Shown piece after piece: positions 2,902-17,344 of a DNA stretch of 64,000 nucleotides (positions are counted from its first letter, which is position 1; each line of letters begins with the position of its first letter). Source of the DNA: a virus (lineage: Duplodnaviria; Caudoviricetes). Where the stretch lies: the IMG/VR virus record IMGVR_UViG_3300043434_000734, positions 128,001 to 192,000 of that record. The stretch is one strand, 5' to 3'. Under the pieces are notes generated by a model, which saw nothing but the letters and a program-made list of their open reading frames with translations, was not told the origin of the DNA and made no database searches. Made by a program: the position numbers and the translations under genes.

Positions 2902-3972
2902 GTGTTAACTACCTTAGAAAAATATCACAAAGATGGTTTGTTACATAAACAAACACACCCGACTCTTGATTTAACTATTTGGAATTACACCCCAAAAGTT
3001 CAGTATGAAAAATTATGGGATGAAATCACAATACAATGTCGTGGATTGGTAACTAATTCTAATGGTGACATTGTTGCTCGACCATTTAAGAAATTCTTTA
3101 ATTATGAAGAACATAAACCAGAAGAGATACCAAACGAAGAATTTGTTGTTTATGAAAAATTAGACGGTTCATTAGGTATTTTATTTAATTACCAAGGGGA
3201 ATGGATATTGTGCACTCGTGGATCATTCACATCACCCCAAGCAATTAAGGGTAAAGAGATTCTTAATAGACACGATATAAGTGCGTTAAGAAAAGATAAT
3301 ACACTTTTATTTGAAATTATTTATCCTGAAAATAGAATTGTTGTTGATTATGGTAACGAAGAAAAATTAGTGGTAATTGGTGGTATACATACTGAAACCG
3401 GCGATGAAATATCCGATGAAGGTTTATCTTTTTTACAACAAGCTGGGTTTGAAGTTGTAACAACATATAAAACTTGGGGTGAAGGTTATGATTTACTTAA
3501 AGAGGATATAAGTAAAGATAAAGAAGGATATGTAATTCGTTTTAAAAGTGGTTTTCGTATGAAAATCAAAGGAGACGAATATGTAAGACTTCATCGTATT
3601 TTAACAAACATATCTAATAGGGATATATGGGAGTATTTAAAGGACAATAGACCGTTTGATGAATTACTCGAAAAAGTACCTGATGAATTTAACGATTGGG
3701 TTAAAAAAACCGTTAGTGATTTAAGATATGGATGTTACCAATTAAGAGAACGCGCAGGTAAATTACACGATGGTTTTAGATATGGTAAATTTGGAGACAG
3801 AGAGGTCGAACCATCTAAAAAAGAATTTGCGGAATTTGTAATGAAACAACAAGAAGTCCTACACGGTATTATGTTTGCTATGTGGGACGGTAATAATAAA
3901 AAAGTAGACGAAATAATTTGGAAATTAGTGAAACCAAAATATTCAAAACCATTTAAGAAAGATGAAAATTGA
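2902..3972 (+). CDS. T4 Rnl1-like RNA ligase
   Basis: CRGLV, RPFKKFFN, motif I EKLDGSLG, TRGSF, FEII, EGYVIRF, KIKG. Confidence 0.88.
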   Translation: MLTTLEKYHKDGLLHKQTHPTLDLTIWNYTPKVQYEKLWDEITIQCRGLVTNSNGDIVARPFKKFFNYEEHKPEEIPNEEFVVYEKLDGSLGILFNYQGEWILCTRGSFTSPQAIKGKEILNRHDISALRKDNTLLFEIIYPENRIVVDYGNEEKLVVIGGIHTETGDEISDEGLSFLQQAGFEVVTTYKTWGEGYDLLKEDISKDKEGYVIRFKSGFRMKIKGDEYVRLHRILTNISNRDIWEYLKDNRPFDELLEKVPDEFNDWVKKTVSDLRYGCYQLRERAGKLHDGFRYGKFGDREVEPSKKEFAEFVMKQQEVLHGIMFAMWDGNNKKVDEIIWKLVKPKYSKPFKKDEN

Positions 3973-4441
3973 AAAAAAAAGAATATATCTCGATGATGTA
4001 AGAACACCATTACAAGATGATTGGGTAGTTGTCAGAAACTATGATGAATTTGTTAGTAAGATTCGTTTAGTGGGGTTAGAAAATATTGAGGTTATTTCAC
4101 TAGATCACGATTTAGGTGATAGTGCAATGATTGAATATTACAATAATGTAAAGGATAATTATGAATTAGACTACTCAAACATTACAGAAAAAACCGGATA
4201 CGACTGCTGTAAATTTTTAGTTAGTGAGAGTATGAGTAAAAATATCCCATTACCCCAAATTTATGTACATTCCGCAAACCCAATTGGGAGTGCAAATATG
4301 ATGGGGTACATAAATAATTATTTTATGAATTCTAAATTACCACAAACTTGTATTCGTGTCAATATTCAACACACAATTGGAGAAGAGTTTATCTTATCAC
4401 CTGAACTTAGAGAAAAAAAATGGAAAAGAAAGGATAATTAA
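3962..4441 (+). CDS. Cyclic-phosphate-processing receiver-domain protein
   Basis: IYLDDVRTP, VVRNYDEF, ISLDHDLG, TGYD, VHSANPIG; operonic with ligase. Confidence 0.8.
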   Translation: MKIEKKRIYLDDVRTPLQDDWVVVRNYDEFVSKIRLVGLENIEVISLDHDLGDSAMIEYYNNVKDNYELDYSNITEKTGYDCCKFLVSESMSKNIPLPQIYVHSANPIGSANMMGYINNYFMNSKLPQTCIRVNIQHTIGEEFILSPELREKKWKRKDN

Positions 4442-5170: not shown

Positions 5171-6478
5171 TTAAAGCATAACTCTTGATCCGACCAAGAA
5201 GTTACTTAACATTGGGGTATTCGGTTCGGTATTTAAATTCAATTTGTAATTAAAACTGAATCCAAAACGTTTAGTTATTTTATAATCAAAACTACTACCC
5301 AATAAAAACCCAATCTGTCTTCCTACCATAGTACCACCAGTAAAGGTGTTGTAACCTAACGGTGACCACATTGTAAAAACTTGTGGAGATATCGTTAATT
5401 TCTTATTATACTGATACGGTTTTGTCCAAAATACTACTGTGGATGTTGACAAACTAGTTGTGTAGGATTCTTCACCTTTCATTAGTAAGGTAATCAACCC
5501 AACATTATATCCGTAAGTCCCCAATTTAGGGTGAGGTTTAATCCAAGTATAACCTAAGAGACCCATATATGTTCCTTTTAAGTACGCTGAGGTAAATGAA
5601 TAACTATTTAATGAATTCAATTGTCCTTTATTTGTCAATTTCATTACAGTTACTCCCGATGAAATTGCAAATTGGTCAAATGTTGAGAAAGCCATTCCAT
5701 TTAAACTATATGATTTATCACCCATCAAAGATGATTTAGACATTCCTACGGTCATAGCTAAAGAATATGTACCGTCGGCCGATTGTGCGGTTGTTAAATC
5801 CGATGCTATTAACATAGGATTTAAATTTTGTTGTTTTCTTTTCTCTTCTTTTTTCTTTTCTTCCTCTTTTTTCTCTTCTTTCTTAGACTCGGATTTTGAC
5901 TCGTCTTTCTTCTTCTCAGTCTTACTTTCTGATTTTGATTCACTCTTACTTTCTGTTTTTGAATCGGTTTTAGATTCTGACGAAGATGAGGTGTTATTTT
6001 TATTATCCGACGATGAGGGTGGTGTTCCACTATTTGATGATGAGGTTGATGGTTGTGTACTTGTTGTTGCACTTGAACTGACGGCTGACGCAGAATTACT
6101 TGCAGCATTCGATGCTGAATTACTAGCAGCATTGGATGCGGCGGTCGATGCTGCCTGACTTGCCGCAGCAGTTGCAGCCGCTGCAACTTGTTGTGTAATT
6201 GTTTGTTGTACTACGGTATTTGTGGGACATCCCATACTATTATATGCCACATATGTTTGTTGTAACCAAACTTGTAATGAACCACCTTGTACTTGTGCTG
6301 GGGTGAATGTTTTTATTTGATTGTAAAATGAAACTACGGCATTACCATTAACATACGTTGTGGTGGCAATTTTAATCTCACCAGAACATTTATCAACAAA
6401 TGTTTGAGTCATAATTGATTGACCCTTTGTGGTAAAACTAAAAAATAATATTAGGAGAGAGATAATTATTTTTTTCAT
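5171..6478 (-). CDS. Exported protein with low-complexity linker and beta-strand-rich C-terminal domain (possible outer-membrane barrel)
   Basis: Signal peptide MKKIIISLLILFFSFTTKG; A/S-rich then K/E-rich linker; alternating aromatic/hydrophobic strands. Confidence 0.6.
   Translation of the reverse strand: MKKIIISLLILFFSFTTKGQSIMTQTFVDKCSGEIKIATTTYVNGNAVVSFYNQIKTFTPAQVQGGSLQVWLQQTYVAYNSMGCPTNTVVQQTITQQVAAAATAAASQAASTAASNAASNSASNAASNSASAVSSSATTSTQPSTSSSNSGTPPSSSDNKNNTSSSSESKTDSKTESKSESKSESKTEKKKDESKSESKKEEKKEEEKKKEEKRKQQNLNPMLIASDLTTAQSADGTYSLAMTVGMSKSSLMGDKSYSLNGMAFSTFDQFAISSGVTVMKLTNKGQLNSLNSYSFTSAYLKGTYMGLLGYTWIKPHPKLGTYGYNVGLITLLMKGEESYTTSLSTSTVVFWTKPYQYNKKLTISPQVFTMWSPLGYNTFTGGTMVGRQIGFLLGSSFDYKITKRFGFSFNYKLNLNTEPNTPMLSNFLVGSRVML
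5821..6186. repeat. Low-complexity coding repeats (ASNAASNS, ESKS/TESK, KKEE)
   Basis: Imperfect tandem codons visible in the sequence and translation. Confidence 0.8.
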
Positions 6479-6488
6479 TATGTTATTT

Positions 6489-7220
6489 CTATTCCATCAA
6501 TTTTAAGTTGTAGTCGTTTATTGTGAATGGACTATATATTGAGTATCTAACATTATTAGATATATTTTTTGTCACTTCGTGAGTGTAATTATATTTTTGA
6601 TGTTCAATTAAAATACATTTTCTAAAATCGGGTAAAAAATCAATAATACCGTTGTTAGTGTATAGCTTTAAGATTGATCCGTCGTCATAACTTCTTTTGT
6701 CGTTTAAAAAAAATAGGATAGTAAATAAACGATTTCCATCTGGATCATTATCCGTATGTTTTCTAATAAACGAACCATTTGGGTAGACGTTAATGTTACC
6801 CATTAAATTTTGTTTAAATTCTTCTTTTACTTTTTTATAAAATAAATCATTTATTATACCTTCATATACCTTTAATAAAATATCATAAATTCCCACATCT
6901 TTTAGGTATTGTATTGGGTGAGTGAGAAAAAAATTAAAATAGTCTTCATCGTAGAATCCAAACTCATCATTTAAATTCTTTAAGAATTGAAAATCGTCAT
7001 ACTTTATTCGATAATTTGAATTGATTTTATTAAATCTTGATAAATCGATTTCTTTTACTTTATTCTGTACATTATCTGACCATTGTAAGAACCCTAATGA
7101 ACTATCTATTTTATTTAAATCAATATTGAAATTATTCACCAACTCACCTAGCCGTGTAAATTCGTCAATATTAAGTAGTTCTTCTAAATTATATATTTTA
7201 TAGTCAAAATTTAAATTCAT
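6489..7220 (-). CDS. 2OG-Fe(II) oxygenase (prolyl-hydroxylase-like)
   Basis: NVYPNGSFIRKHTD, TILFFLN, HEV, RYSI facial triad and Arg. Confidence 0.8.
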   Translation of the reverse strand: MNLNFDYKIYNLEELLNIDEFTRLGELVNNFNIDLNKIDSSLGFLQWSDNVQNKVKEIDLSRFNKINSNYRIKYDDFQFLKNLNDEFGFYDEDYFNFFLTHPIQYLKDVGIYDILLKVYEGIINDLFYKKVKEEFKQNLMGNINVYPNGSFIRKHTDNDPDGNRLFTILFFLNDKRSYDDGSILKLYTNNGIIDFLPDFRKCILIEHQKYNYTHEVTKNISNNVRYSIYSPFTINDYNLKLME

Positions 7221-7282
7221 AATTATAAATATAAAAAAAGGGGTAATTAACCCCTTAATTTAATATTGTTTTAATTGTACGA

Positions 7283-8002
7283 TTATTTTGTAAAAATCCC
7301 CTTTTTAATCATTCTATCAAGAATGTTGGCACAAGCAATATCAAGTGCTTTCTTTGTTGCAATTGATATTGTTGATTGGTTAAATTTAATTGGGTCAATG
7401 GATGCGTCGGATAATAGAGTTAACTCTCTTTTTGTTGTTGCTTCACCTAAACCCGAGGCACCAAACAAAACACCAGTTTCAGCGTCGGTAAACCTAACTT
7501 GTAAACCAATACGAGTTACCATATTATCTTTAATTCCATCTTTAAGATTAATAGTTTCATCTTCAGAAATTGAATAGTCATAACATTCGATAGTCACAAA
7601 GTATTTTGCTAAATTAATTTTACCACGACCATCTAATTTATTTTCGGAAATACCTGATTGAGATGCTTGAAATTGCTTCACCATACGGTTTTTAATTTCG
7701 GTTTTATCTTCAGTAAACTTAAAACGATTTAAATTCTCTAAATACTCCATTGATATGTTGGCAACACCCAAACCAACACGCTTTTCTTTTAGTTCGGGAT
7801 ACATTTCATAAATTTCATCTGAAATACCACATTTAAGAATTTGAATGGGAATTTGTGGACCTTCGTAATCCATATATTGTGAAATGTCTTTTTTCTTCTC
7901 AAAATCGGCTTTATATTGTTCAGTTTTAGTTGACCCTATTGTTTGTGCGTTTCCTAAAAAACCAATTAGGATTAACGATAATAAAAGAAATATTTTTTTC
8001 AT
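7283..8002 (-). CDS. CsgG/HfaB-family exported protein
   Basis: Signal peptide; GLGVANI..EYLENLNRF, AKYFVT, RIGLQVRFTDAETG, C-terminal helix. Confidence 0.7.
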   Translation of the reverse strand: MKKIFLLLSLILIGFLGNAQTIGSTKTEQYKADFEKKKDISQYMDYEGPQIPIQILKCGISDEIYEMYPELKEKRVGLGVANISMEYLENLNRFKFTEDKTEIKNRMVKQFQASQSGISENKLDGRGKINLAKYFVTIECYDYSISEDETINLKDGIKDNMVTRIGLQVRFTDAETGVLFGASGLGEATTKRELTLLSDASIDPIKFNQSTISIATKKALDIACANILDRMIKKGIFTK

Positions 8003-8005
8003 AAA

Positions 8006-8236
8006 TTATTTTGTTTTTGGTTTTTCATACCAAATATTATTTGGGTTATTTTTAAATGTCCCATCTATTTTCCAAGCAATACGGTTTGAAATGTCTAAAG
8101 CTCTGTTTTCTTGATTTGTGAAGTGTAAATAAATGCCGAATCCCTGAAAGGATAGGGCAAAACCTATCCAAATAACTATTAAAATTAAATATACTTTAAA
8201 GAGTGACTCCCCGACGTTTTTTAATGATATTGTCAT
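8006..8236 (-). CDS. Small membrane protein
   Basis: One long hydrophobic segment; upstream TATTTATA on minus strand. Confidence 0.6.
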   Translation of the reverse strand: MTISLKNVGESLFKVYLILIVIWIGFALSFQGFGIYLHFTNQENRALDISNRIAWKIDGTFKNNPNNIWYEKPKTK

Positions 8237-8264
8237 AATCTATTTTATATATAAATACATCGAA

Positions 8265-8291
8265 AAAAAAAGGAGTCATTTGACTCCTTTA
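8265..8291. terminator. Bidirectional intrinsic terminator
   Basis: AAAAGGAGTCA-tt-TGACTCCTTTT. Confidence 0.7.
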
Positions 8292-8293
8292 TA

Positions 8294-8542
8294 TTAACCT
8301 TCAGTTTCTTCTTTCTTTTTATGTGAGAATTTATCCAAAGTATCGGCTCCCATCCCAATACCCGTAATTAACATTACTGCGTTTACCAATTCAGGTGACG
8401 GTGCAAAATCCGAGTGAGAGAACGAATTTAAAACCATTGTTACACATAGGAATAACGCACCTATCATTGCGATTACCGGTTTTACCGATATTGATCCTCT
8501 TTCGTCTTTGAAGAGTTCAATTAACCATTCTTTAAATTTCAT
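8294..8542 (-). CDS. Two-TM small membrane protein (holin-like topology)
   Basis: Two hydrophobic helices, basic/acidic C-tail. Confidence 0.55.
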   Translation of the reverse strand: MKFKEWLIELFKDERGSISVKPVIAMIGALFLCVTMVLNSFSHSDFAPSPELVNAVMLITGIGMGADTLDKFSHKKKEETEG

Positions 8543-8568
8543 AGTTTTTTATTTTTGTCATTTGTTTA

Positions 8569-9180
8569 TTATCCTTCCATATGTATTTCTGCGTATTCAT
8601 CTTTTACTTTACCACACTTCAAACATTCTTCACTTCCGTCACCATCTAAATCCCCCCAAACGTGTTCACATTGTCTATGAGTAAAGTATTCGTCGATTTT
8701 ACCGTCACCATCAAAGTCCAAACCATCCATTACCCCATCACCATCTTCATCAATTTCAGTACCCTTCTTTTCAATTTTTGTTGTCTCATCAATTTCTATT
8801 GTATTTTCAGTTGTCAATTCTGGTAATACTAAAGGAGATACGGACATCGGTACTATCGGATTGTTTGGTCCGTCATTAGTATTACTTAACGATATGCCAT
8901 CTTCCTCATCCATTTTTTGAACTAACATTTTATCTTTATCCGTATCACTAAACCAATAATCAATAATTTTACCGTAACTACCGATAAAGGCACCCAACAA
9001 TAATAAAAGAAGTTCTTTCCACTCTCCCTCTATTGCTGATTTATTTAAAATCGCACCAAATATCCCCATTATAATTATCATAAAACCACCCAATACGATG
9101 GCCGTGATGAACCATCTACGCTTCATCATACTACTCAATAATTCCTTAAATCCACTTGGTGGTTGTTGTTGTTCACTCAT
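8569..9180 (-). CDS. Two-TM membrane protein with DxDxDG Ca-binding-like repeats
   Basis: TM segments, then DEDGDG, DFDGDG, DLDGDG and CEH..CLKC. Confidence 0.6.
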   Translation of the reverse strand: MSEQQQPPSGFKELLSSMMKRRWFITAIVLGGFMIIIMGIFGAILNKSAIEGEWKELLLLLLGAFIGSYGKIIDYWFSDTDKDKMLVQKMDEEDGISLSNTNDGPNNPIVPMSVSPLVLPELTTENTIEIDETTKIEKKGTEIDEDGDGVMDGLDFDGDGKIDEYFTHRQCEHVWGDLDGDGSEECLKCGKVKDEYAEIHMEG

Positions 9181-9263
9181 CTTTTTTTTTGTTTTTTAAA
9201 AGTATGTCTTATTAAGAACGTTAGTGAACATATAAAGAGCACTAACGTTCGAATTTGATAAAA

Positions 9264-9578
9264 TTACCACTTAGGTGCCTCTTCCTTAAACTCATCACCC
9301 TCCTTTTTCTTAGGTTTTGGTTGAGGTTGTGTCGGCTCTGACGATTTTTCTTTAATTATTATAGTCTTTCCACCTGCAGCTTGTTGTTGAGCTTGTTGAT
9401 TTGAGTTTGTAATATTAATCACCGGCGCAGCCTGTTGTACTGGTGTTTCTTCTTTATCACCACCCGTTAATTGTGTTGTGAACCAACCACCTACACCTAG
9501 TGTAATTGTTGATACTAACCCTAATAGAATGTTCTTTAACGAACCTCCTGTACTTTCTGATTTTTCTTCTTCTGCCAT
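9264..9578 (-). CDS. Single-TM protein with Q/P/K-rich tail
   Basis: LKNILLGLVSTITLGVGGWF TM segment. Confidence 0.6.
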   Translation of the reverse strand: MAEEEKSESTGGSLKNILLGLVSTITLGVGGWFTTQLTGGDKEETPVQQAAPVINITNSNQQAQQQAAGGKTIIIKEKSSEPTQPQPKPKKKEGDEFKEEAPKW

Positions 9579-9597
9579 TGTATTTGTTTTTATATAA

Positions 9598-9978
9598 TTA
9601 TTGTATTTTATTAAAATCTGTTATTCCTAATTGTCTATTGTCGGAATTAAATAATCCAATTCTGTATGCTGATTTTGGGAGGGCATTAGTATATACCTTT
9701 AATACATTATCTCCGGCAACAACATTCATAGTTTCTTTTGAGACTACTCGATTTGCGATATCAAATATTTTAACCGTAACCGAACCAGAGGTTTCCATTT
9801 TAAGGTTCATTGCAACTTCTGAAGTTACAAATGCAGTCTGTAATTTAATACCAACTGAGTTATTAATTTTAAGTTCTTCAGATACTGATTGTGGTATTGG
9901 TACAATATCTTCTTTATAACATCCCGTTAATATTGTCGACACAAGTACCAATAAGAGAATTTTTTTCATTTTTGCCAT
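9598..9978 (-). CDS. Lipoprotein consisting of a T9SS C-terminal-domain-like Ig fold
   Basis: Lipobox LTGC followed by YKED; VTVKIFDIANRVV..GDN..TNALPKSAYRIGL. Confidence 0.6.
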   Translation of the reverse strand: MAKMKKILLLVLVSTILTGCYKEDIVPIPQSVSEELKINNSVGIKLQTAFVTSEVAMNLKMETSGSVTVKIFDIANRVVSKETMNVVAGDNVLKVYTNALPKSAYRIGLFNSDNRQLGITDFNKIQ

Positions 9979-9980
9979 TT

Positions 9981-10325
9981 TTAATTTACTATTATTGTTG
10001 TCTTTTTTAATTCTTTCCTATCCACATCTTCGAGTACCAAATATAAATATCCCTTGGGTAGTGAATTAGTGTAAATCTTCTTTACATTTTCACCATTTTG
10101 TCCAATAAATTTTTCTCGACCTATTACCTGATTTGTGTTTTTATCTATTAGTGTTAAATAATGAATAGTATTCGATGTTAAATCAAAGTGTATAGATTGA
10201 CCATTTGAAACACTACTTTCGGTTACACTAAATATATCATCTTTGGCCATAACCTTTGGGTACGGTATTTCAGGTTTAGTACACCCCCAAAGTAAAATAA
10301 CCCATATAAATAATATTCGTTTCAT
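9981..10325 (-). CDS. Lipoprotein, T9SS-CTD-like paralogue
   Basis: Lipobox LWGC; LTLIDKNTNQVI..GEN..IYTNSLPKGYLYLVL..KKTTIIVN. Confidence 0.55.
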   Translation of the reverse strand: MKRILFIWVILLWGCTKPEIPYPKVMAKDDIFSVTESSVSNGQSIHFDLTSNTIHYLTLIDKNTNQVIGREKFIGQNGENVKKIYTNSLPKGYLYLVLEDVDRKELKKTTIIVN

Positions 10326-12262
10326 TATTTTAATTTTACTTTTAACTGTGTCCCACCCTTATTTACGGCATCTGTTGTTGATATCGATGTCAACCCCAAA
10401 ATACTACTTAATCCCATTTTCGGTAGAAATGTTATTTTGTATTCCGTTGTCTTATCTAATATAGTTGAACCATCAGTAATCAATGAACCTAACGTTATAT
10501 TATCACCTTTATCGGTCCCAAAATTAGTAGGATTACCTTTTGTTGTGAATTCTATTTTTTGAAATTCTAAAGCCGCATTATCATAGTTTAATTGAAATTG
10601 TGTACCAACTAATTCTTGTTCTAATGGGTCTACCGAAAGTGTTACAATCAACTTATTACCTACATTTTCGCTCATAACTAACACATTTACTTCATTGGTG
10701 GTTGTTTTACTTACCAAACTCATAGTTCTAATCGAATTACTACCAACACTACTTACACTTTGTTGTGCGGAATGTGATAGATTTATATCCCCTAACCAAG
10801 TGCCTGATATATTAAATACATCCGTTGAATTTGTGGTATTGATATCAAATACATAAGTGTTTCCTATGTATTTTGGAAACGTATTCCAATTGGATTTACC
10901 AATTGTATTATAAGTTTGCGTTGGTACTAATTTCACTAAATTAGGAAAGGTAAATGTATCTACTATATTATTAAATCCTGTCAAATGTTGTAATAATCGA
11001 TATGTATCTGATTCATTAAAAATTCCATCTCCGTTTACGTCGGCATTCATATATTGAACGCCATTTGTGAATTCCAGTCCATTTTGATTTCCTAAGATTC
11101 CACCATTTGATAATTCTTTAAATGCCAAATACACGTCCGATACCGTCACAACACTATTATATAATGTAGATAATGAATTTGTTGTCATTATCACTGATTG
11201 TGGTTTGTATTGTTGAATTTGATTAAATGTAAATTCGGCTTTTGTTCCATACCAACCATTTTGTAAACGAAGATATGATTGATATGTGGATGACGTAATT
11301 TTAGTTGAAATATTTGGAACGATTCGGAATATCTTCCAACCGCCAGCATCTTGTACATAAGTTATTGGTCCGTCGTATATATCAAATAATTGAATTGATT
11401 TAACATCTGATGGTGAAATACCCGTACCATCAAACTCTCTCGCATCTATGTATAATCGATGTCCACCAAATGATGTGGAATACACATCTATAATTGCCCA
11501 TTCAACTGAACCTGGAGTTGTTAGTGATTTGTATCCGTTTGGTATTTTGGTAGTATCTAATGAGTTCGTAACATCCACCACACCAGTTGAACTTAATGTA
11601 GTTCCACTTACTGATAATTTTGTTTTATCTAAATTACTACCAAAATCAAAATTGATTTTTGCTTGTTTGGTTGGAACACTTGCCACATTGGTTACTTCAT
11701 TTGTCCAATATGAATATACTTGTGGTGCGGAAGGTTTTGACCAATGTAAGTAAAATGCTTCTCCACCACCATATTCCTGAAATCTTGCAACCACCGAATA
11801 TCTTCTTCCGGCAATTAAATTTATCTGACCATATTGATACCCACTTGCCCCGTGTCCACCATAATATGATGTTACCACAACCCCATCAATTAATAAATCA
11901 GAAGCATCGTCTGAATTCACACCAAAGGTATATGTTCCGGTTTCTTGTGGTATAAAAAAGAATTCAAATTTATACCCAAAGTAATCACTAGCCCAACGAG
12001 GTACATTAAATGAACCGGTTGCAATATTTTGTAAAGTGGTTTCTCCTGTTCTGAATATTGTTGTGTTTGAATTTGTTGTGTTAAACATCGTAACAAAATC
12101 GGATGAAGTATTGGCAAATGCACTATATTGATTTGTTACACCGTTTCCATTGTGGGTTTTGTAAGAAGTATAATTAACATATCCCCAACCCGATTGAGCT
12201 AAGGATATGTTATATGTTAATACCAATAATAAAAGTACAAGTAATTTTTTCATACTACTCAA
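10325..12262 (-). CDS. Exported PA14 + dockerin + cohesin-like protein
   Basis: Signal peptide; PA14 (FFIPQETGTYTFGVNSDDASDLLIDG..QEYGGG); dockerin ADVNGDGIFNESD; cohesin-like LVGTQFQLNYDNAALEF. Confidence 0.75.
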   Translation of the reverse strand: MSSMKKLLVLLLLVLTYNISLAQSGWGYVNYTSYKTHNGNGVTNQYSAFANTSSDFVTMFNTTNSNTTIFRTGETTLQNIATGSFNVPRWASDYFGYKFEFFFIPQETGTYTFGVNSDDASDLLIDGVVVTSYYGGHGASGYQYGQINLIAGRRYSVVARFQEYGGGEAFYLHWSKPSAPQVYSYWTNEVTNVASVPTKQAKINFDFGSNLDKTKLSVSGTTLSSTGVVDVTNSLDTTKIPNGYKSLTTPGSVEWAIIDVYSTSFGGHRLYIDAREFDGTGISPSDVKSIQLFDIYDGPITYVQDAGGWKIFRIVPNISTKITSSTYQSYLRLQNGWYGTKAEFTFNQIQQYKPQSVIMTTNSLSTLYNSVVTVSDVYLAFKELSNGGILGNQNGLEFTNGVQYMNADVNGDGIFNESDTYRLLQHLTGFNNIVDTFTFPNLVKLVPTQTYNTIGKSNWNTFPKYIGNTYVFDINTTNSTDVFNISGTWLGDINLSHSAQQSVSSVGSNSIRTMSLVSKTTTNEVNVLVMSENVGNKLIVTLSVDPLEQELVGTQFQLNYDNAALEFQKIEFTTKGNPTNFGTDKGDNITLGSLITDGSTILDKTTEYKITFLPKMGLSSILGLTSISTTDAVNKGGTQLKVKLK

Positions 12263-13904
12263 TTATTAAATCGACTTTATTTCCTTTTGAGTCGACAGCA
12301 TCGGATAATACAAAATAGAATAATCCGGCGGTATTTGTTAAAGATGTTTTTGGTGTAAATATTAATTTGTAAGGTGTACCAACTTTAATTCTTGATGTTT
12401 TTAATTGGTCAATGGAACCAAATGTCAATCTACCATTTTCGTGTGTTGAGAAGTTAGTGATTGTCGAACCCGAATCAAATATTACATTATCCAAAGTTAA
12501 TTTAGATTCGTCGTAATTCATTACAACTTGTAAACCCGCTAATTCCGATTTGGTTAATGTTGTTGTTAAAATAACTTTTCCATTTTCTAAGGTAGAAGTG
12601 ATACCCAATGTTACCTTCTCGAGTGATGTTGTTTTATAAGACATTGGTGAAGTGCTCATAGTTTTTAATGAATTGGTGTTTTTATTACTCACCGAATTAG
12701 TATATTGTCCGTCACTTATTTTAGTTGCAATTACTGACGGGTCGGATGAATGTGACCAATTTAAATCCCCACCCCAAGCAAAAACGGCATATACTTCTTT
12801 AATTGGAGAATCAATTATTACCTTATTTTTAACCATACCATCTAACCAACTTTGATTTAATAAACCACTATACCATCTGACCGATGTTGAGGTACTTGTT
12901 GGAATCATAGCCAATGTTGACATATCTTGACCCATTACGTGAGCAAATAAAGTATATGAATCACTTTCACCAAATGAATTACCATTTAGTGTAACCTTAC
13001 CTATCTTTTTTTCTAACTCAGGTAAAGTAAAGTAATTTCCGGTTCCACTAATATCAGTTTGTGAATGACCTAAAAATGCTTTATATGCGTCCGATACCGT
13101 CACAATATTATTCATCCAACTTTTCTGAAATGCTGCACCAACGAATACACCAACTGAATCACCCACTTTAACTTGTGTGGTAAAAAGTACTTCACCACTG
13201 GCATCTAATGGTAATTGTGCAATAGGTTGTTGTGACCAATCAATATCACCACTACCATCCGATTTTAATTTCATCAGTTGAACATTATGGTCTGTGATGT
13301 TATATCCCTGTGGATATAACACTTTTACTTTAAATTGAGAAGTGTTACCTGTCACACTATTCAAAGATGACCACCCACCACCATAAATAGTTCCCACATT
13401 TGAACCATCGATATCGGTACCTGTAGCTAAATCTATTTTGAAAATATTATTGTATGTATTTTGATCTTTTAGAATATATTTCTGAGTTGCAATCAAACCA
13501 CTAATCGAAGCATCCGCTCTTTGAACTGTTAATTGACCAACATTCCAATCTGCATTAACCACATAATTCCAAGGCGTTAAACCATATTGAACATCTAAAT
13601 CATTATCACTTGCACCACCATTGAAATTAAATTTGTAATTGTTCCAACCTGTATAAAAAGTTTGAGCGGAGGAACCTTGATTAAATGTCGTTGAAATATA
13701 TGACAGTGCTTTGTTATTGTACTGATATCTAAACCAAAGATAACGAGGATTTTTAATCACTTGTCCTTTTGATAATGTATATTTGACAGTAATCGTGTCA
13801 CCAACCTTTAATCCGGTTGTGGGTGTTAGTGATTGACTAATTGTTAATTGACCAAATGATGTTAGACTTATTAATAGTAAACATAAGGAGAGAAGTTTTT
13901 TCAT
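12255..13904 (-). CDS. Exported cohesin + degenerate dockerin + cohesin-like protein
   Basis: Signal peptide; GDTITVKY..FRYQYNNKALSY; IVTVSDAY..GESDSY; LAGLQVVMNYDESKLTL; C-terminus paralogous to the neighbouring gene. Confidence 0.65.
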   Translation of the reverse strand: MKKLLSLCLLLISLTSFGQLTISQSLTPTTGLKVGDTITVKYTLSKGQVIKNPRYLWFRYQYNNKALSYISTTFNQGSSAQTFYTGWNNYKFNFNGGASDNDLDVQYGLTPWNYVVNADWNVGQLTVQRADASISGLIATQKYILKDQNTYNNIFKIDLATGTDIDGSNVGTIYGGGWSSLNSVTGNTSQFKVKVLYPQGYNITDHNVQLMKLKSDGSGDIDWSQQPIAQLPLDASGEVLFTTQVKVGDSVGVFVGAAFQKSWMNNIVTVSDAYKAFLGHSQTDISGTGNYFTLPELEKKIGKVTLNGNSFGESDSYTLFAHVMGQDMSTLAMIPTSTSTSVRWYSGLLNQSWLDGMVKNKVIIDSPIKEVYAVFAWGGDLNWSHSSDPSVIATKISDGQYTNSVSNKNTNSLKTMSTSPMSYKTTSLEKVTLGITSTLENGKVILTTTLTKSELAGLQVVMNYDESKLTLDNVIFDSGSTITNFSTHENGRLTFGSIDQLKTSRIKVGTPYKLIFTPKTSLTNTAGLFYFVLSDAVDSKGNKVDLIIE

Positions 13905-13906
13905 TT

Positions 13907-14425
13907 TTACTTTTTGTTAAAAAATGTTTTATTAATTAACGATTCACACGTTTTTTTTATGGCAGACGATAACGCTTGTTGATTAACTTTATCACTACCC
14001 TCATCAGTAATTAACGTTGAGGTGGATATTTCCGAACTGGATTCTTCTGAGGTCGACTCTTTAAGTTTCTTACCTGTGTTATCGGTAAGAATCCCTTTCA
14101 TAATAACCAAAGTTTCCTCAACGTCTGAATGAAATACTGACACATTACGTTTTGTTCTATTAACGTCAAAGTATAAAATAACAGCACCAAATATTAAATC
14201 GGCCTGACTTTTGTCCTCCACGATGAAAAACTCCTTGTCTTGTAAAATTTCTTGAAAAATGTTTTTAACACCAAAAGCGAAGTTTCGGTTACCGGTAAAT
14301 TTACCAATTTTGATTTTGTTCTCAACCTCACCAATATATACTTTTCTCGTTTCCTGAGCATATGAAGAGAGTGCTAGGAATGAAAGTAATAAAAGGAGGA
14401 GAGAGGTTCCCTTTATTTTTGTCAT
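13907..14425 (-). CDS. Second CsgG-like exported protein
   Basis: Likely ATG at 14425, 4-5 nt after TATTTAT; signal peptide; FAFGVKNIFQEIL; C-terminal NQQALSSAIKK resembling NQSTISIATKK of 7283-8002. Confidence 0.5.
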   Translation of the reverse strand: MTKIKGTSLLLLLLSFLALSSYAQETRKVYIGEVENKIKIGKFTGNRNFAFGVKNIFQEILQDKEFFIVEDKSQADLIFGAVILYFDVNRTKRNVSVFHSDVEETLVIMKGILTDNTGKKLKESTSEESSSEISTSTLITDEGSDKVNQQALSSAIKKTCESLINKTFFNKK

Positions 14426-14535: not shown

Positions 14536-15318
14536 ATGAGTAATTTTAAACATCTTACCGAATTGGAAATCCAACAAATGACATTTGATTGGAGATATAG
14601 AGGTTTCACAGTTTTGGAACTTTTAACCGAAGAAGAATGTGATGAAATAAATGATGAATTGGAAGGATTACGTCAAGCACGTATCGGTACGACTACCGAA
14701 GACGGTAAAGCTTGGGGTGAGTGGGACCCATTCGCATATCCACACAAACTATCTGATAAATTAGCAAAATTATACGTTCACCCTAAACTTATTGAGGCTT
14801 GTGAGTTTTTGATGGAAGGTGAAATCGTAGGTATGCAAAGTTGGGCATATTTTAAACCACCTGGACAATTGGGTAGAGATCAACACCAAAACGCATTTTA
14901 TACTGGATGTAAACATAATGAAATTATCAATACCGCGTTAGCTTTAGATAATCACGACGAGGGTAATGGTGCGGTTTGGAACTATGAGGGTTCACACAGA
15001 TTACCGACATTACCTATTGAGGTGGATGAAGAAAGAACGAAAACGAATCCATCGTTTTGGAGAAATGAAAGAGGTAAACCTTGTATTATGCCCGAAGGAC
15101 ACGATTTCCGTAAAGTGGAAGGTATTTTGAAAAAAGGACAAGTCGTTTTACTTCACTCACACTGTGTACACGGTTCCGAAGCTAACAATTCAAATAGAAT
15201 GAGAAGAAACTATTTGGGTGGATTTTTAAAGAAAGGGGCTTATTACAATCAAGGAAGTCATATGAAACGTGAACCAATTGACGTTTATGAATTAAGAGAT
15301 AAACATTGGGGGAAATAA
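14536..15318 (+). CDS. Phytanoyl-CoA dioxygenase (PhyH)-family 2OG-Fe(II) enzyme
   Basis: YFKPPG, HQN, ALALD, NGAV..YEGSH, LLHSHCVHGS..N.S.R.RR. Confidence 0.85.
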   Translation: MSNFKHLTELEIQQMTFDWRYRGFTVLELLTEEECDEINDELEGLRQARIGTTTEDGKAWGEWDPFAYPHKLSDKLAKLYVHPKLIEACEFLMEGEIVGMQSWAYFKPPGQLGRDQHQNAFYTGCKHNEIINTALALDNHDEGNGAVWNYEGSHRLPTLPIEVDEERTKTNPSFWRNERGKPCIMPEGHDFRKVEGILKKGQVVLLHSHCVHGSEANNSNRMRRNYLGGFLKKGAYYNQGSHMKREPIDVYELRDKHWGK

Positions 15319-15321: not shown

Positions 15322-15708
15322 ATGAAAAAACCAAATGTCATAAACGTTCACGAATGTCCTGAATGTAAAGTACCCAAAGGATGGGGTGAAGAAATTATTA
15401 TTTGCAATCACGAATTATATTGTGGTAAATTAATGTGTTTCAAAAAGGGTGCAATGTTTTCAATGCACTACCATATGATTAAAGATGAGACTTGGTACGT
15501 AAACGAGGGTGAATTTTTATATCGATGGATTGATACTGAGACAGCAGTGGTAAACGAACAACATTTAAAAGTAGGTGATGTTGTGAGACAACTACCAGGA
15601 CAACCTCATCAATTAGAGGCATTAACTGACGGTGTGGTTTTTGAAGTTTCCACGGAACACTTTGATTCTGACTCATATAGAGTTTGGAAAGGAGATTCAC
15701 AAAAATAA
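15322..15708 (+). CDS. Cupin-domain protein (sugar-isomerase-like)
   Basis: PKGWG.E, FSMHYHMIKDETWYV, PGQPHQL, EVSTEHFDSDSYR. Confidence 0.8.
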   Translation: MKKPNVINVHECPECKVPKGWGEEIIICNHELYCGKLMCFKKGAMFSMHYHMIKDETWYVNEGEFLYRWIDTETAVVNEQHLKVGDVVRQLPGQPHQLEALTDGVVFEVSTEHFDSDSYRVWKGDSQK

Positions 15709-16026: not shown

Positions 16027-16099
16027 TGGAATGTAGCTCAATGGTGAGAGCATCCGCCTGATACGCGGAAGGTTATAAGTTCGAGTCTTATCATTCCAA
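16027..16099 (+). tRNA. trnI: tRNA-Ile(GAT)
   Basis: tccgc-ctgatac-gcgga; full cloverleaf. Confidence 0.92.
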
Positions 16100-16104
16100 C
16101 ATTG

Positions 16105-16177
16105 GGAACTTTGGTATAGCCGGTGCGTACGTTGGACTGAAAATCCGAAGGAACAAGTTCGATTCTTGTAGGTTCCA
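16105..16177 (+). tRNA. trnF: tRNA-Phe(GAA)
   Basis: ttgga-ctgaaaa-tccga. Confidence 0.9.
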
Positions 16178-16240
16178 CAAATAAAGTAAAATTTGAACGA
16201 TAAAGTTAATCACTTTATTAAACAGAAATAACTTTATTAT

Positions 16241-16314
16241 GACCTCTTAGCTCAGTTGGTTAGAGCACCTCACTTTTAATGAGGGAGTCCCGCGTTCGAG
16301 TCGCGGAGGGGTCA
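16241..16314 (+). tRNA. trnK: tRNA-Lys(TTT)
   Basis: cctca-cttttaa-tgagg. Confidence 0.93.
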
Positions 16315-16319
16315 CACAC

Positions 16320-16392
16320 ACGGGTATGGTGAAAATGGTTATCATTTTAGTCTCCAAAACTAAAGTTCCTGATTCGAGTTCAGGTATCCGTG
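16320..16392 (+). tRNA. trnW: tRNA-Trp(CCA)
   Basis: ttagt-ctccaaa-actaa. Confidence 0.88.
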
Positions 16393-16453
16393 CAAATGTT
16401 CGATTTTTTTAGTCCGTTTCGAACTTTCGTGATATTTATAAATAAAGAACATT

Positions 16454-16993: not shown

Positions 16994-17039
16994 TATTATG
17001 AAAAAAGAATTCGATATGCATTAGTTAAACTAATCGCAT

Positions 17040-17243: not shown

Positions 17244-17272
17244 TGTTTACTATTAACAGTAAACAGTAAACG

Positions 17273-17344
17273 GGTCTCTTGGTGTAACGGATAGCACGAA
17301 ACACTACGGATGTTTTAGTAAGGGTTCAAATCCTTTAGAGACCT
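17273..17344 (+). tRNA. trnR: tRNA-Arg(ACG)
   Basis: aaaca-ctacgga-tgttt. Confidence 0.88.

What the first reader, a model, noticed from the sequence alone, without database searches (positions are those of the whole stretch)
5171..14425. Phage-encoded cell-surface assembly operon (CsgG-like x2, cohesin/dockerin x2, T9SS-CTD-like lipoproteins x2, membrane proteins)
Seen: twelve co-oriented, tightly packed genes, nearly all with signal peptides, lipoboxes or TM helices, starting 4-5 nt after a TATTTAT motif. Known: CsgG forms outer-membrane secretion pores, cohesin-dockerin pairs assemble cellulosome-type complexes, PA14 binds glycans, and CTDs direct Bacteroidota T9SS export. Inference: the phage builds its own modular adhesin or scaffold, probably with its own export channel, on the infected cell. 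Possible roles are superinfection exclusion, aggregation, anti-grazing or virion release. I know of no functional description of such a phage module.
Basis: partly seen in the sequence, partly recalled or inferred. Interest (0 to 1): 0.88.

Follow-up and report, generated by a model that had tools for sequence, protein, structure and literature searches.

The report
Phage-encoded host cell-envelope module
A giant freshwater phage, probably of Flavobacterium-like bacteria, carries a widely conserved block of about eleven exported proteins that looks built to remodel the infected cell's outer surface. The block has two CsgG-type ring proteins, an outer-membrane barrel, sugar-binding cohesin/dockerin proteins, lipoproteins and small membrane proteins, and I found no description of such a phage module.

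Summary
Twelve co-oriented minus-strand ORFs lie at 5171-14425, and eleven carry a signal peptide, lipobox or TM helix. Gene order is kept in 86 of 86 IMG/VR loci that span the block.

Domain calls largely hold:
- g10 belongs to the CsgG/HfaB superfamily (Z 13.2 to CsgG; distant homologues carry PF03783), but it has no lipobox.
- g1 is its distant paralogue, with a PelC/CsgG/LptE-type fold.
- g2 and g3 end in cohesin-like domains preceded by a dockerin-like module.
- The g3 head is PA14 here and is swapped for C-type lectin or LCCL in relatives.
- g4 and g5 are paralogous lipoproteins. g5 carries the Bacteroidota surface-export signal C-X-K-(D/E)2. Their likeness to T9SS CTDs is sub-threshold.
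- g12 has an autotransporter-like layout: small N-domain, long linker, C-terminal barrel.
- g11 (2OG oxygenase) is a variable insert.
- Predicted terminators split the block into three transcription units.

Reduced versions occur in a marine phage lineage and in cultured Flavobacterium phage vB_FspM_immuto.

Best reading: a host-envelope module that anchors glycan-binding scaffolds at the outer membrane. An own export channel, cohesin-dockerin binding and the biological role remain unproven.

I found no published description. First readers of this scan noted the same module on other genomes, and none had been followed up.

The parts
13907..14425 (-). g1: secreted 172-aa protein with a PelC/CsgG/LptE-type alpha/beta fold. 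It is a distant paralogue of g10 and has no lipobox.
   Evidence: AF2 model pLDDT 74. VIA Z 12.7 to PelC, 12.4 to CsgG, 10.7 to TraT, 9.6 to LptE. Foldseek hits to the same fold class. hhalign against the g10 profile: 92.6%, E 4.6e-7.
12255..13904 (-). g2: secreted 549-aa protein. It has a degenerate dockerin-like segment (about 12915-13121) and a C-terminal cohesin-like domain (12258-12632).
   Evidence: Pfam Cohesin scores 17.6 bits here. 15 of 40 orthologues match, best E 4e-6. Conserved helix motifs are seen in the alignment.
10325..12253 (-). g3: secreted protein of about 642 aa. It has a PA14 head (about 11735-11992), a dockerin-like module (10928-11200) and a cohesin-like C-terminus (10328-10720).
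   Evidence: PA14 scores 30.7 bits, above the cut-off of 24. The dockerin profile hits only dockerins in PDB, E 2.5e-5 to 7e-3. The cohesin profile hits cellulosomal cohesins, E 7e-5. Orthologues swap the head for C-type lectin or LCCL.
9981..10325 (-). g4: 114-aa lipoprotein with a small beta-sandwich. It is a paralogue of g5.
   Evidence: An N-terminal Cys in 85 of 85 family members, lipobox pattern in 71. Aligns with g5 at 27% identity. DUF3244 and Por_Secre_tail hits in the family are sub-threshold.
9598..9978 (-). g5: 126-aa lipoprotein with the Bacteroidota surface-export signal C-Y-K-E-D.
   Evidence: Lipobox plus C-X-K-(D/E)2 in 24 of 52 family members. The motif is defined experimentally in PMC5080379. 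DUF3244 E 0.0024, Por_Secre_tail E 0.15.
9264..9578 (-). g6: 104-aa protein with a weak N-terminal TM segment, a Q/P/K-rich tail and an invariant C-terminal Trp.
   Evidence: Sequence. The last residue is W in 90 of 90 loci and in immuto gp016. g6-like genes are present in the marine and immuto modules.
8569..9180 (-). g7: 203-aa two-TM protein. The N-terminal 100 aa are extremely conserved. The tail is acidic and rich in DGDG, with CxH...CxxC.
   Evidence: 66% identity to the marine 104-aa copy. 1883 homologues, the best 120 at 75-100% identity to that copy. TM prediction.
8294..8542 (-). g8: 82-aa small membrane protein, highly conserved (median 87%).
   Evidence: It is followed by a terminator-like hairpin at 8290-8269.
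8269..8290 (-). Terminator-like hairpin that ends the g1-g8 unit.
   Evidence: 9-bp stem followed by a T-run.
8006..8236 (-). g9: 76-aa TM protein. Its position within the module varies among relatives.
   Evidence: TATTTAT lies 15 nt upstream.
7283..8002 (-). g10: secreted 239-aa CsgG/HfaB-superfamily protein. It is among the most conserved genes of the module (median 86-87% identity) and has no lipobox.
   Evidence: phmmer reaches lipoproteins, of which 18 of 37 carry PF03783. AF2 model pLDDT 78. CsgG Z 12-13.2 over 170-196 residues. Foldseek top hits are CsgG. Best Swiss-Prot structural match is NMB1126/1164, E 2e-12. Atlas TM 0.72 to a PF03783 cluster.
7238..7256 (-). Terminator-like hairpin that ends the g9-g10 unit.
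   Evidence: 7-bp GC-rich stem followed by a T-run.
6489..7220 (-). g11: cytoplasmic 2OG-Fe(II) oxygenase. It is a variable insert, not a core part.
   Evidence: PF13640 at 34.6 bits. Present in only 4 of 86 spanning loci.
5171..6478 (-). g12: signal peptide, a conserved two-Cys N-domain of about 75 aa (6194-6421), a low-complexity S/T/A then K/E linker of about 125 aa (5816-6193), and a C-terminal outer-membrane beta-barrel (5174-5815).
   Evidence: The Atlas model of residues 222-435 matches autotransporter barrels at TM 0.80-0.83, and also OMP_b-brl and DUF481. Marine and immuto orthologues end in ...RVFF and ...KLTF. The barrel is 54-62% conserved while total length varies from 275 to 552 aa.

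Best explanation
This is a conserved accessory module by which a jumbo myovirus of Flavobacteriia-type hosts installs its own protein complex in the envelope of the infected cell.

Shown: eleven of the twelve products are Sec-exported or membrane-inserted.

Inferred assembly:
- g10 is a CsgG/HfaB-family protein and g1 is its small PelC/LptE-like paralogue. Together they form a periplasm-facing ring or platform at the outer membrane.
- They sit next to g12, whose C-terminal barrel inserts in the outer membrane. Like a type Va autotransporter, g12 presents a small N-domain on a long flexible stalk.
- g5, and probably g4, is lipid-anchored and flipped to the cell surface by the host's lipoprotein export signal pathway.
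- g2 and g3 carry a variable lectin head (PA14 here), a dockerin-like module and a cohesin-like end. They are held by this platform, may link to each other, and bind surface glycans.
- The small inner-membrane proteins g6 to g9 couple or regulate the assembly.

The closest working analogy is the CsgG/HfaB-plus-lipoproteins cluster that anchors holdfast or PNAG polysaccharide and adhesins to the cell surface.

The most likely pay-off for the phage is remodelling or masking of the infected cell's glycan surface, either to exclude superinfecting phages and avoid losing progeny to infected cells, or to change adhesion. That last step is inference only.
For: Export signals are present on 11 of 12 products.

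Synteny:
- All module genes lie on one strand in 86 of 86 spanning loci.
- The g10 query matched 517 IMG/VR stretches, 502 of which encode a relative.
- g10 has a median identity of 86% against about 50% for g1, g3 and g9.

The same core is present in two other lineages, a marine phage (L154/L155) and cultured Flavobacterium phage immuto gp013-gp019. The core is a lectin and/or cohesin protein, a g6-like gene, a g10-like gene, a g12-like barrel and a g1-like gene. There the cohesin protein carries a T9SS Por_Secre_tail (marine, 30.8 bits; a CTD-like ending in immuto, by eye), which points to a cell-surface destination.

- g10 is CsgG-family.
- g1 has a PelC/CsgG/LptE/GNA1162-type fold and is a paralogue of g10.
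- The g12 barrel matches autotransporter barrels.
- g5 carries the experimentally defined surface-export signal C-X-K-(D/E)2.
- Cohesin and dockerin profiles hit only cohesins and dockerins in PDB.
- The lectin heads are swapped among orthologues between PA14, C-type lectin and LCCL, as expected for a ligand-facing tip.
- In A. baumannii, the bacterial CsgG/HfaB cluster with a GNA1162-like lipoprotein is needed for PNAG and pili, and it is compared there with HfaB holdfast anchoring.
- The module lies next to early/replication-type genes in immuto and the marine phage. In relative G002 it is about 45 kb from the endolysin homologue.
- The window also encodes a glycan-synthesis cluster and a secreted nuclease.
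Against: - Nothing here shows localisation, assembly or expression.
- In this lineage g2 and g3 have no T9SS tail, so their route across the outer membrane is unknown. They could remain periplasmic.
- g10 lacks the lipid anchor of CsgG. Its long hairpin (about residues 141-167) is rich in charged residues, so a membrane pore is doubtful.
- No CsgA/B/E/F-like partner was seen.
- Only one dockerin repeat is canonical.
- The orientation of g12 (N-domain outside or in the periplasm) is not determined.
- The biological role is pure inference.
Confidence: 0.5

Rival explanations
1. Periplasmic blockade or superinfection exclusion without surface display. The CsgG/PelC/LptE/TraT-fold proteins (g10, g1), the CTD-like lipoproteins (g4, g5) and the barrel stay at the inner face of the outer membrane. 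There they plug or divert host machines such as the T9SS translocon, gliding adhesin export or LptD-type receptors, so that later phages cannot adsorb or inject.
For: - The g1 and g10 models also match the decameric exclusion lipoprotein TraT (Z 10.7 and 7.9) and LptE, which plugs LptD.
- g4 and g5 show sub-threshold CTD/DUF3244 likeness and so could mimic T9SS cargo tails.
- Flavobacterium phage resistance maps to gliding and T9SS genes, so these systems control receptor display (10.1101/2020.10.02.323337, PMC9804748).
- A secreted non-specific nuclease sits inside the module in relatives.
Against: - The g5 export signal predicts surface exposure.
- Swapped lectin heads and T9SS tails on the relatives' cohesin proteins point outward.
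- TraT and LptE matches score lower than CsgG and PelC matches.
- Known exclusion systems are one or two genes, not eleven (from memory).
Confidence: 0.2
2. An exopolysaccharide export and anchoring system. g1 (PelC-like ring) with the g12 barrel, helped by g10, exports or anchors a glycan made by the phage's own glycosyltransferase cluster. The lectin proteins g2 and g3 hold that glycan on the cell.
For: - The best g1 match is PelC (Z 12.7), the ring partner of the PelB barrel.
- Atlas neighbours of the g12 barrel include a TPR-plus-barrel cluster, TM 0.67.
- The window carries glf, GT11, GT25 and two more glycosyltransferases at 34209-39907.
- The CsgG-cluster knockout in A. baumannii loses PNAG.
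Against: - No polymerase, flippase or inner-membrane exporter was recognised in the module.
- g1 is not lipidated, unlike PelC.
- The g12 barrel is small (about 210 aa, autotransporter-sized), not a 16-strand porin.
- The glycan cluster is 20 kb away, and its linkage to the module was not tested in relatives.
Confidence: 0.15
3. A lysis or egress cassette. g7, g8 and g9 act as holins or antiholins, g6 with g4/g5 acts as spanin-like components, and the outer-membrane proteins help disrupt the envelope.
For: - g7 and g8 have two TM segments and charged tails, as holins do.
- g6 is a small N-anchored protein followed, in relatives, by a lipoprotein.
- There were weak spanin PHROG hits (E about 0.06-0.07) for g5, covering only its signal peptide and lipobox region.
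Against: - No endolysin lies in or next to the block. The endolysin homologue in relative G002 is about 45 kb away, and in immuto it is a separate gene.
- The g7 N-terminal part (66% identical to a marine copy, against 36% for g10) and g8 (median 87%) are far more conserved than holins usually are.
- The lectin, cohesin and CsgG parts have no role in known lysis systems.
- The module sits beside replication genes in relatives.
Confidence: 0.07
4. Virion-associated decoration or fibre proteins (lectin and Ig-like domains on particles) rather than host-envelope proteins.
For: Phage capsids and fibres often carry lectin-like or Ig-like domains (from memory). There were weak PHROG 'virion structural protein' hits with E 0.01-0.04.
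Against: - Cleavable signal peptides, lipoboxes and an outer-membrane barrel are incompatible with cytoplasmic virion assembly.
- No structural PHROG match was significant.
Confidence: 0.03

Closest known systems
Bacterial CsgG/HfaB-family three-gene 'curli-like' cluster (A. baumannii D1G37_12595-12605; N. meningitidis NMB1124-1126, including GNA1162)
   Same: - A CsgG-family protein is paired with a small TolB-N/GNA1162-fold protein. The best Swiss-Prot structural match of g10 is NMB1126/1164, and g1 matches GNA1162 (4hrv) among others.
- The cluster is implicated in holding polysaccharide and fibres on the cell surface.
   Different: - Here the genes are phage-encoded.
- Neither protein is lipidated.
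- They are joined by a barrel protein, lectin-cohesin-dockerin proteins, two lipoproteins and four inner-membrane proteins.
- No DUF4810-type partner was recognised.
Caulobacter HfaA/HfaB/HfaD holdfast anchor
   Same: A CsgG-like outer-membrane component serves surface adhesin and anchor proteins that hold a glycan (as described). HfaB appears among the fold hits for g10.
   Different: - No HfaA/HfaD homologues are present.
- The glycan-binding parts here are PA14 or C-type lectin heads on cohesin/dockerin proteins.
Curli secretion channel CsgG-CsgF-CsgE
   Same: The fold matches, with Z 12-13.2 over 170-196 residues, including the membrane-bound form 4uv3.
   Different: - No lipobox.
- No direct PF03783 hit.
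- The hairpin is polar.
- No CsgA/B/E/F-like genes.
- A nonameric pore has not been shown.
PelBC exopolysaccharide exporter (PelC ring plus PelB barrel) and LptDE
   Same: A small alpha/beta protein of this fold is encoded beside an outer-membrane barrel. The best g1 match is PelC.
   Different: - g1 lacks the lipid anchor.
- The g12 barrel is autotransporter-sized, has no TPR domain and carries a long disordered linker.
Cellulosomal and non-cellulosomal cohesin-dockerin scaffolds
   Same: The C-terminal domains match cohesin profiles and PDB cohesins. A module with a DxNxDGxxxxxD calcium loop and a following helix matches dockerins.
   Different: - Both modules sit in the same polypeptide.
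- The first dockerin repeat is degenerate.
- The context is a phage of a Gram-negative host.
- The cargo is a lectin rather than an enzyme.
- Binding has not been shown.
Type Va autotransporters
   Same: The order is signal peptide, N-terminal passenger, linker and C-terminal barrel of about 210 aa. Barrel TM 0.80-0.83 to autotransporter clusters.
   Different: - No PF03797 hit.
- The passenger is only about 75 aa.
- The linker is low-complexity S/T/A then K/E.
- The last residue is Leu here.
Single-gene phage or plasmid surface-exclusion lipoproteins (TraT; T5 Llp, from memory)
   Same: These are exported envelope proteins made by a mobile element. TraT shares the fold class with g1 and g10.
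   Different: This is a multi-gene module with lectin and cohesin parts, and exclusion has not been tested.

Membership tests
CsgG/HfaB family (PF03783), g10 | Sequence match to the family model | tested here: inconclusive
   g10 itself has no Pfam hit at E<=1. However, phmmer links it (E 1e-8 to 1e-40) to 220-245-aa lipoproteins, of which 18 of 37 scanned carry PF03783, best E 1.9e-17. Membership therefore holds at superfamily level through intermediates.
CsgG/HfaB family (PF03783), g10 | CsgG protomer fold | tested here: met
   AF2 model pLDDT 78. CsgG chains take the top 8 ranks at Z 12.0-13.2, rmsd 3.0-4.0, 170-196 residues aligned. The next family is PelC at Z 10. Atlas TM 0.72 to a cluster that is 100% PF03783.
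CsgG/HfaB family (PF03783), g10 | N-terminal lipobox Cys (lipoprotein) | tested here: not met
   The signal peptide ends ...GNAQ-T with no Cys. Only 2 of 96 clade members show a lipobox pattern, whereas the distant homologues have L-x-G-C.
CsgG/HfaB family (PF03783), g10 | Nonameric ring with transmembrane beta-hairpins forming a pore | not testable with these tools
   The model has long strands at 134-152, 156-173 and 179-194, but the hairpin tip is rich in D, E and K. No oligomer model was run.
Curli system | CsgA/B amyloid subunits and CsgE/F partners nearby | tested here: not met
   Pfam, NCBIfam and PHROG scans of all twelve products found none.
PelC/LptE/GNA1162-type small outer-membrane-associated alpha/beta proteins, g1 | Fold | tested here: met
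   PelC Z 12.7 (113 aa, rmsd 2.7), CsgG 12.4, CT253 12.3, TraT 10.7, LptE 9.6. The top rows are tied, so no single family can be assigned. The profile is related to g10.
PelC/LptE/GNA1162-type small outer-membrane-associated alpha/beta proteins, g1 | Lipid anchor | tested here: not met
   Signal peptide ...SSYAQ-E. Lipobox pattern in 1 of 81 family members.
Cohesin (PF00963), g2 and g3 C-termini | Match to the cohesin model | tested here: met
   Window g2 scores 17.6 bits, below the cut-off of 24.1. Orthologues and relatives pass it: L130 34.0, L152 27.5, L154 43.4 bits. 15 of 40 g2 orthologues match, and Cohesin is the only family hit. The g3/g2 C-terminal profile hits cellulosomal cohesins, 3l8q 7e-5 and 4ums 1.7e-4.
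Dockerin type I (PF00404), g3 355-445 and the g2 equivalent | Two tandem calcium-loop/helix repeats | tested here: inconclusive
   Pfam scores 16.2 bits, below 22.9. The profile's significant PDB hits are all dockerin modules, 8x39 2.5e-5 and 3ul4_B 2e-3, but all align to the second repeat. The first repeat (..VTVSDVYLAFKEL..) lacks the DxNxDG loop.
Cohesin-dockerin pair | Physical binding of the two modules | not testable with these tools
   No usable computational verdict was obtained (see Tried and rejected). This needs ITC or pull-down with calcium.
PA14 (PF07691), g3 head | Match above the Pfam gathering score | tested here: met
   30.7 bits against a cut-off of 24, residues 91-176. Also found in orthologue L035.
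T9SS cargo with C-terminal sorting domain (PF18962), g4 and g5 | CTD model match at the C-terminus of a larger cargo | tested here: not met
   g5 scores 12.8 bits against a cut-off of 27. 10 of 92 family members reach E<=0.01, best 3.4e-4, and 35 of 92 hit DUF3244. The proteins are 114-126-aa lipoproteins that consist of this one domain. True CTDs do occur on the cohesin proteins of marine relatives (30.8 bits).
Bacteroidota surface-exposed lipoproteins | Lipoprotein export signal C-X-K-(D/E)2 after the lipidated Cys | tested here: met
   g5 has C-Y-K-E-D. 24 of 52 orthologues match exactly and 41 of 52 match loosely. g4 (C-T-K-P-E) matches only loosely. The motif is defined in PMC5080379.
Type Va autotransporter, g12 | C-terminal 12-strand-type barrel with an N-terminal passenger | tested here: inconclusive
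   The Atlas model of 222-435 matches PF03797 clusters at TM 0.80-0.83 over 200-207 residues. There is no Pfam Autotransporter hit, and I could not model the barrel myself.
Tailed jumbo phage | Terminase, tail sheath and a large genome in close relatives | tested here: met
   G001 (324 kb, 97% complete) and G002 (336 kb, 100% complete) carry PF03237 and PF04984 matches above their cut-offs. The window has 24 tRNAs plus a tmRNA.

The most novel reading that the evidence does not exclude
The phage builds, on the living infected cell, a calcium-dependent 'cellulosome-style' lectin scaffold. It anchors the scaffold with its own CsgG/HfaB-type platform, an autotransporter-like stalk and surface lipoproteins. 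The lectin head is swapped to match the host's glycans. The structure masks or captures surface glycans that serve as phage receptors, so it would be a multi-protein, virus-made cell-surface organelle.
Probability: 0.3. Interest if true: 0.85.

Novelty: new variant of a known kind. Interest (0 to 1): 0.72.

Why it matters
Phage genes known to alter the host surface are mostly single lipoproteins, inner-membrane exclusion proteins or O-antigen-modifying enzymes. Here a block of 10-11 exported proteins is kept in order across at least 86 large aquatic phage contigs. One component, g10, has relatives at 502 viral-contig loci. Reduced forms occur in marine phages and in a cultured Flavobacterium phage.

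The block joins protein kinds that are not known to work together in phages: CsgG/HfaB-type ring proteins, an autotransporter-like barrel, cohesin/dockerin modules and interchangeable lectin heads.

If it assembles on the cell surface, this would be a new way for viruses to reprogramme the envelope, adhesion or phage susceptibility of abundant freshwater and marine Bacteroidota. It would also give a function to the poorly understood non-curli CsgG/HfaB clusters.

The cultured pair vB_FspM_immuto and Flavobacterium sp. LMO8 makes the question directly testable.

Tried and rejected
Searches that gave nothing:
- Megablast of the block against 50,697 phage records: no match. tblastn of g7: no match.
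- Direct Pfam, PHROG and NCBIfam scans of g1, g10, g6, g8 and g9: nothing usable.
- phmmer of g1 and g10 against PDB sequences: no hits.
- Profile searches against PDB for g1 (A1), full-length g2 (A2) and g4/g5 (A7): only chance-level hits.
- The last homology search on the g12 barrel returned only unannotated phage proteins.
- Literature: no paper with CsgG plus huge or jumbo phages, cohesin/dockerin plus phage, cohesin domain plus Flavobacterium phage genome, or phage lectin plus exclusion. The papers that mention immuto concern DNA modification, polymerases or ecology.

Tests with no verdict or not possible:
- Complex prediction of the g3 dockerin-like module against the g2 and g3 cohesin-like domains gave no verdict. 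The score was 0.02 against a mark of 0.32, and the partner itself folded poorly (pLDDT 34-40). This is no evidence either way.
- The look-up of sequencing runs: no RNA holder is listed. The DNA holders are freshwater metagenomes, most of them possibly the source sample.
- No whole genome is held for the window.
- Contigs encoding the distant g10 homologues P0152, P0185 and P0225 were too short to show their context.

Readings considered and rejected:
- Lysis cassette. A PHROG scan of 62 g6-g9 family members found no holin or spanin family, there is no adjacent endolysin, and these small membrane proteins are very highly conserved.
- Virion proteins, because of the signal peptides, lipoboxes and barrel.
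- A true curli system, because there are no subunits and no CsgE/F.
- g4 and g5 as T9SS cargo, because they are whole-protein lipoproteins with only sub-threshold CTD likeness.

Full report
**What is there.** Twelve ORFs, here called g1 to g12, lie on the minus strand from 14425 down to 5171. Gaps between them run from -8 to 83 nt.
- g1, g2, g3, g10 and g12 begin with signal peptides that end in A/S-Q and contain no cysteine.
- g4 and g5 have a lipobox cysteine that is present in every family member checked.
- g6 to g9 are small membrane proteins.
- g11 is a cytoplasmic 2OG-Fe(II) oxygenase (PF13640).

TATTTAT sits 4 nt before the ATG of g1 and g11 and 15 nt before g9. Across the window, 13 of the 60 motif copies lie 4-7 nt before the ATG of an ORF of at least 50 aa. 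Two terminator-like hairpins, at 8290-8269 and 7256-7238, follow g8 and g10. The 'operon' is therefore more likely three units: g1-g8, g9-g10 and g11-g12.

**Context.** The window carries 24 tRNA genes and a tmRNA. It also has a ClpB-like ATPase, a T4-type RNA ligase, HNH endonucleases and a glycan-synthesis cluster. No whole genome is held for it, and the DNA is found in freshwater metagenomes. Two close relatives are near-complete viral contigs of 324 and 336 kb. Both have a terminase large subunit and a tail sheath, so this is a jumbo myovirus.

**Conservation.**
- A g3 query found 73 IMG/VR loci. A g10 query matched 517 stretches, of which 502 encode a relative.
- In the 86 loci that contain both g1 and g12, all module genes are on one strand.
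- Each of g1-g7, g10 and g12 is present in 79-86 of the 86 loci. g11 is present in only 4.
- g10 (median 86% identity) and g8 (87%) are far more conserved than g1, g3 and g9 (about 50%).

So the block is a core feature of a large phage clade, and g11 is a variable insert.

**g10 and g1.** Neither gene hits Pfam, PHROGs, NCBIfam or PDB sequences directly.

For g10:
- An exhaustive phmmer search found 220 cluster representatives, reaching 220-245-aa lipoproteins at 24-35% identity.
- 18 of 37 scanned sequences carry PF03783 CsgG, best E 1.9e-17.
- The AF2 model (pLDDT 78) is matched first by CsgG structures: Foldseek E about 1e-7 and VIA Z 12.0-13.2 over 170-196 residues. PelC follows at Z 10.
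- The best Swiss-Prot structural match is the Neisseria lipoprotein NMB1126/1164, E 2e-12.
- ESM Atlas neighbours are PF03783 clusters, TM 0.72.

For g1:
- The model (pLDDT 74) has the same fold class. PelC scores Z 12.7, CsgG 12.4, TraT 10.7 and LptE 9.6, and GNA1162 is among the Foldseek hits.
- The g1 and g10 profiles are related (hhalign 92.6%, E 4.6e-7).

'CsgG-like x2' therefore holds at superfamily level. However, both phage proteins lack the lipobox that their cellular relatives have, and the long g10 hairpin is rich in charged residues. No curli subunit or CsgE/F gene is present. A pore is therefore not shown.

**g2 and g3.**
- Cohesin. Window g2 is below the Pfam cut-off at 17.6 bits. 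Still, 15 of 40 orthologues match Cohesin and nothing else. Relatives pass the cut-off at 27.5-43.4 bits. A profile of the C-terminal domain hits cellulosomal cohesins in PDB at 7e-5 and 1.7e-4.
- Dockerin. A profile of g3 residues 355-445 gives significant PDB hits only to dockerin modules, E 2.5e-5 to 7e-3. All of them align to the second repeat. The first repeat is degenerate.
- PA14 in g3 passes the Pfam threshold.
- Orthologues of g3 come in about 640-, 760- and 865-aa classes. Their N-terminal heads are PA14, C-type lectin, or C-type lectin plus LCCL. This is modular swapping of a glycan-binding tip on a conserved dockerin-cohesin body.

**g4 and g5.** These are paralogous lipoproteins of 114-126 aa. 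Their family shows only sub-threshold matches to DUF3244 (35 of 92) and Por_Secre_tail (10 of 92). They are not T9SS cargo tails. After its lipidated Cys, g5 carries C-Y-K-E-D. This is the optimal Bacteroidota lipoprotein export signal C-X-K-(D/E)2, defined experimentally in Capnocytophaga and transferable from Flavobacterium (PMC5080379). That predicts surface exposure and a Bacteroidota host.

**g12.** The protein has a signal peptide, a conserved two-Cys domain of about 75 aa, a low-complexity linker of about 125 aa (S/T/A-rich, then K/E-rich) and a C-terminal domain of 214 aa. The Atlas model of that last domain matches autotransporter barrels (TM 0.80-0.83) and other outer-membrane barrels. 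Orthologues in other lineages end in the usual aromatic residue. The barrel is conserved while the linker length varies. The layout is that of a type Va autotransporter, although there is no Pfam hit.

**g6 to g9.**
- g6 ends in an invariant Trp (90 of 90 loci).
- The first 100 residues of g7 belong to a very large family: 1883 proteins, with the best 120 at 75-100% identity to a marine copy.
- No holin or spanin family matches any of 62 family members.

**Other lineages.** A marine phage (TARA contigs L154-L157), reached through a 36%-identical g10 homologue, carries a reduced module next to RecA-like, exonuclease and DnaB genes. It consists of:
- a 646-aa protein with Cohesin (43 bits) plus a T9SS Por_Secre_tail (31 bits);
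- a g7-like protein;
- a secreted non-specific nuclease;
- a g6-like protein;
- a lipidated g10-like protein;
- a g12-like barrel;
- a g1-like protein.

Cultured Flavobacterium phage vB_FspM_immuto (160 kb, host Flavobacterium sp. LMO8) has the same set at gp012-gp019:
- gp012, a secreted nuclease;
- gp013, a C-type lectin protein;
- gp015, a cohesin protein with a CTD-like end;
- gp016, g6-like;
- gp017, g10 at 55% identity;
- gp018, a g12-like barrel;
- gp019, g1-like.

It again sits beside replication genes and far from its annotated endolysin. In relative G002 the endolysin homologue is about 45 kb from the module.

**Interpretation.** The conserved core is a lectin and/or cohesin protein, a g6-like protein, a CsgG-like protein, a barrel and a small CsgG paralogue. 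Several features point to a complex at the outer membrane and cell surface of the infected cell:
- the T9SS tails on relatives' cohesin proteins;
- the surface-export signal on g5;
- the swapping of lectin heads.

The nearest functional analogue is the widespread but poorly studied bacterial cluster of a CsgG/HfaB protein with two lipoproteins. In A. baumannii this cluster is required for PNAG and pili. The authors compare it with HfaB-dependent anchoring of the Caulobacter holdfast (10.1101/2021.05.19.444899).

I therefore favour, at about 0.5, a phage-made anchoring platform for glycan-binding scaffolds. The likely benefit is receptor masking, superinfection exclusion or altered adhesion. 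Flavobacterium phage resistance maps to gliding and T9SS genes, which makes surface display a plausible battleground.

Rivals:
- a periplasmic blockade of host machines (0.2);
- a Pel-like exopolysaccharide exporter or anchor linked to the phage's glycosyltransferases (0.15);
- a lysis cassette (0.07);
- virion proteins (0.03).

**Limits.**
- No localisation, expression or binding data exist.
- The single complex prediction gave no verdict.
- g2, g3, g4, g5 and g12 were not modelled here.
- How g2 and g3 would cross the outer membrane in this lineage, which lacks CTDs, is unknown.

**Novelty.** I found no paper describing such a module. The immuto record annotates only 'lectin' and 'cohesin' domains and otherwise hypothetical proteins. 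First readers of this scan noted the same module on several other genomes, and none had been followed up. The parts belong to known families. Their combination in a phage, and their conservation, are new.

Noticed in passing
window 16027-22657 and 27436-27837: An array of 24 tRNA genes, interrupted by HNH-type and other small ORFs, followed by a phage tmRNA with the unusual tag GNVYNNMEIAGLLATSKVAA.
   Followed up: no
window 34209-39907 (-): A phage-encoded glycan-synthesis cluster: UDP-galactopyranose mutase (glf), GT11 fucosyltransferase-like, GT25 and two further glycosyltransferases. It could supply or modify the glycans that the module's lectins bind. Co-occurrence with the module was not tested.
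   Followed up: partly
window 42423-43058 (-): A secreted non-specific nuclease (Endonuclease_NS, 131 bits, signal peptide ending ...IAQ-D). Its counterparts sit inside the envelope module in the marine (L154) and immuto (gp012) lineages.
   Followed up: partly
window-wide, e.g. 14425, 7220, 31606, 32628, 46663, 49158, 57425, 60955: TATTTAT lies 4-7 nt before the ATG of 13 ORFs of at least 50 aa, out of 60 motif copies. This suggests a phage promoter that yields leaderless or near-leaderless mRNAs.
   Followed up: partly
window 8569-9180 (-); L154:5499-5813: The N-terminal two-TM part of g7 belongs to a very large environmental family of unknown function: 1883 proteins, the best 120 at 75-100% identity to the marine copy. 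It has no Pfam or PHROG model.
   Followed up: partly
window 9264-9578 (-): g6 ends in a Trp that is invariant in 90 of 90 related loci and in immuto gp016. It may be a C-terminal docking residue.
   Followed up: no
L047, L061, L063, L139 (g3 orthologues): The g3 head is exchanged among relatives between PA14, C-type lectin, and C-type lectin plus LCCL, on a conserved dockerin-cohesin body.
   Followed up: yes
window 6489-7220 (-), 14536-15318 (+), 15322-15708 (+): Three oxygenase or cupin genes (2OG-Fe(II) oxygenase, PhyH dioxygenase, cupin) lie in or beside the block. Each is found in only about 10 of 153 related loci, so they are variable accessory genes.
   Followed up: partly
window 2902-4441 (+): A T4 Rnl1-type RNA ligase is followed by a cREC_REC (cyclic-phosphate-processing receiver) protein, which may be an RNA-repair pair. 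It is syntenic with the module's downstream flank in many relatives.
   Followed up: no
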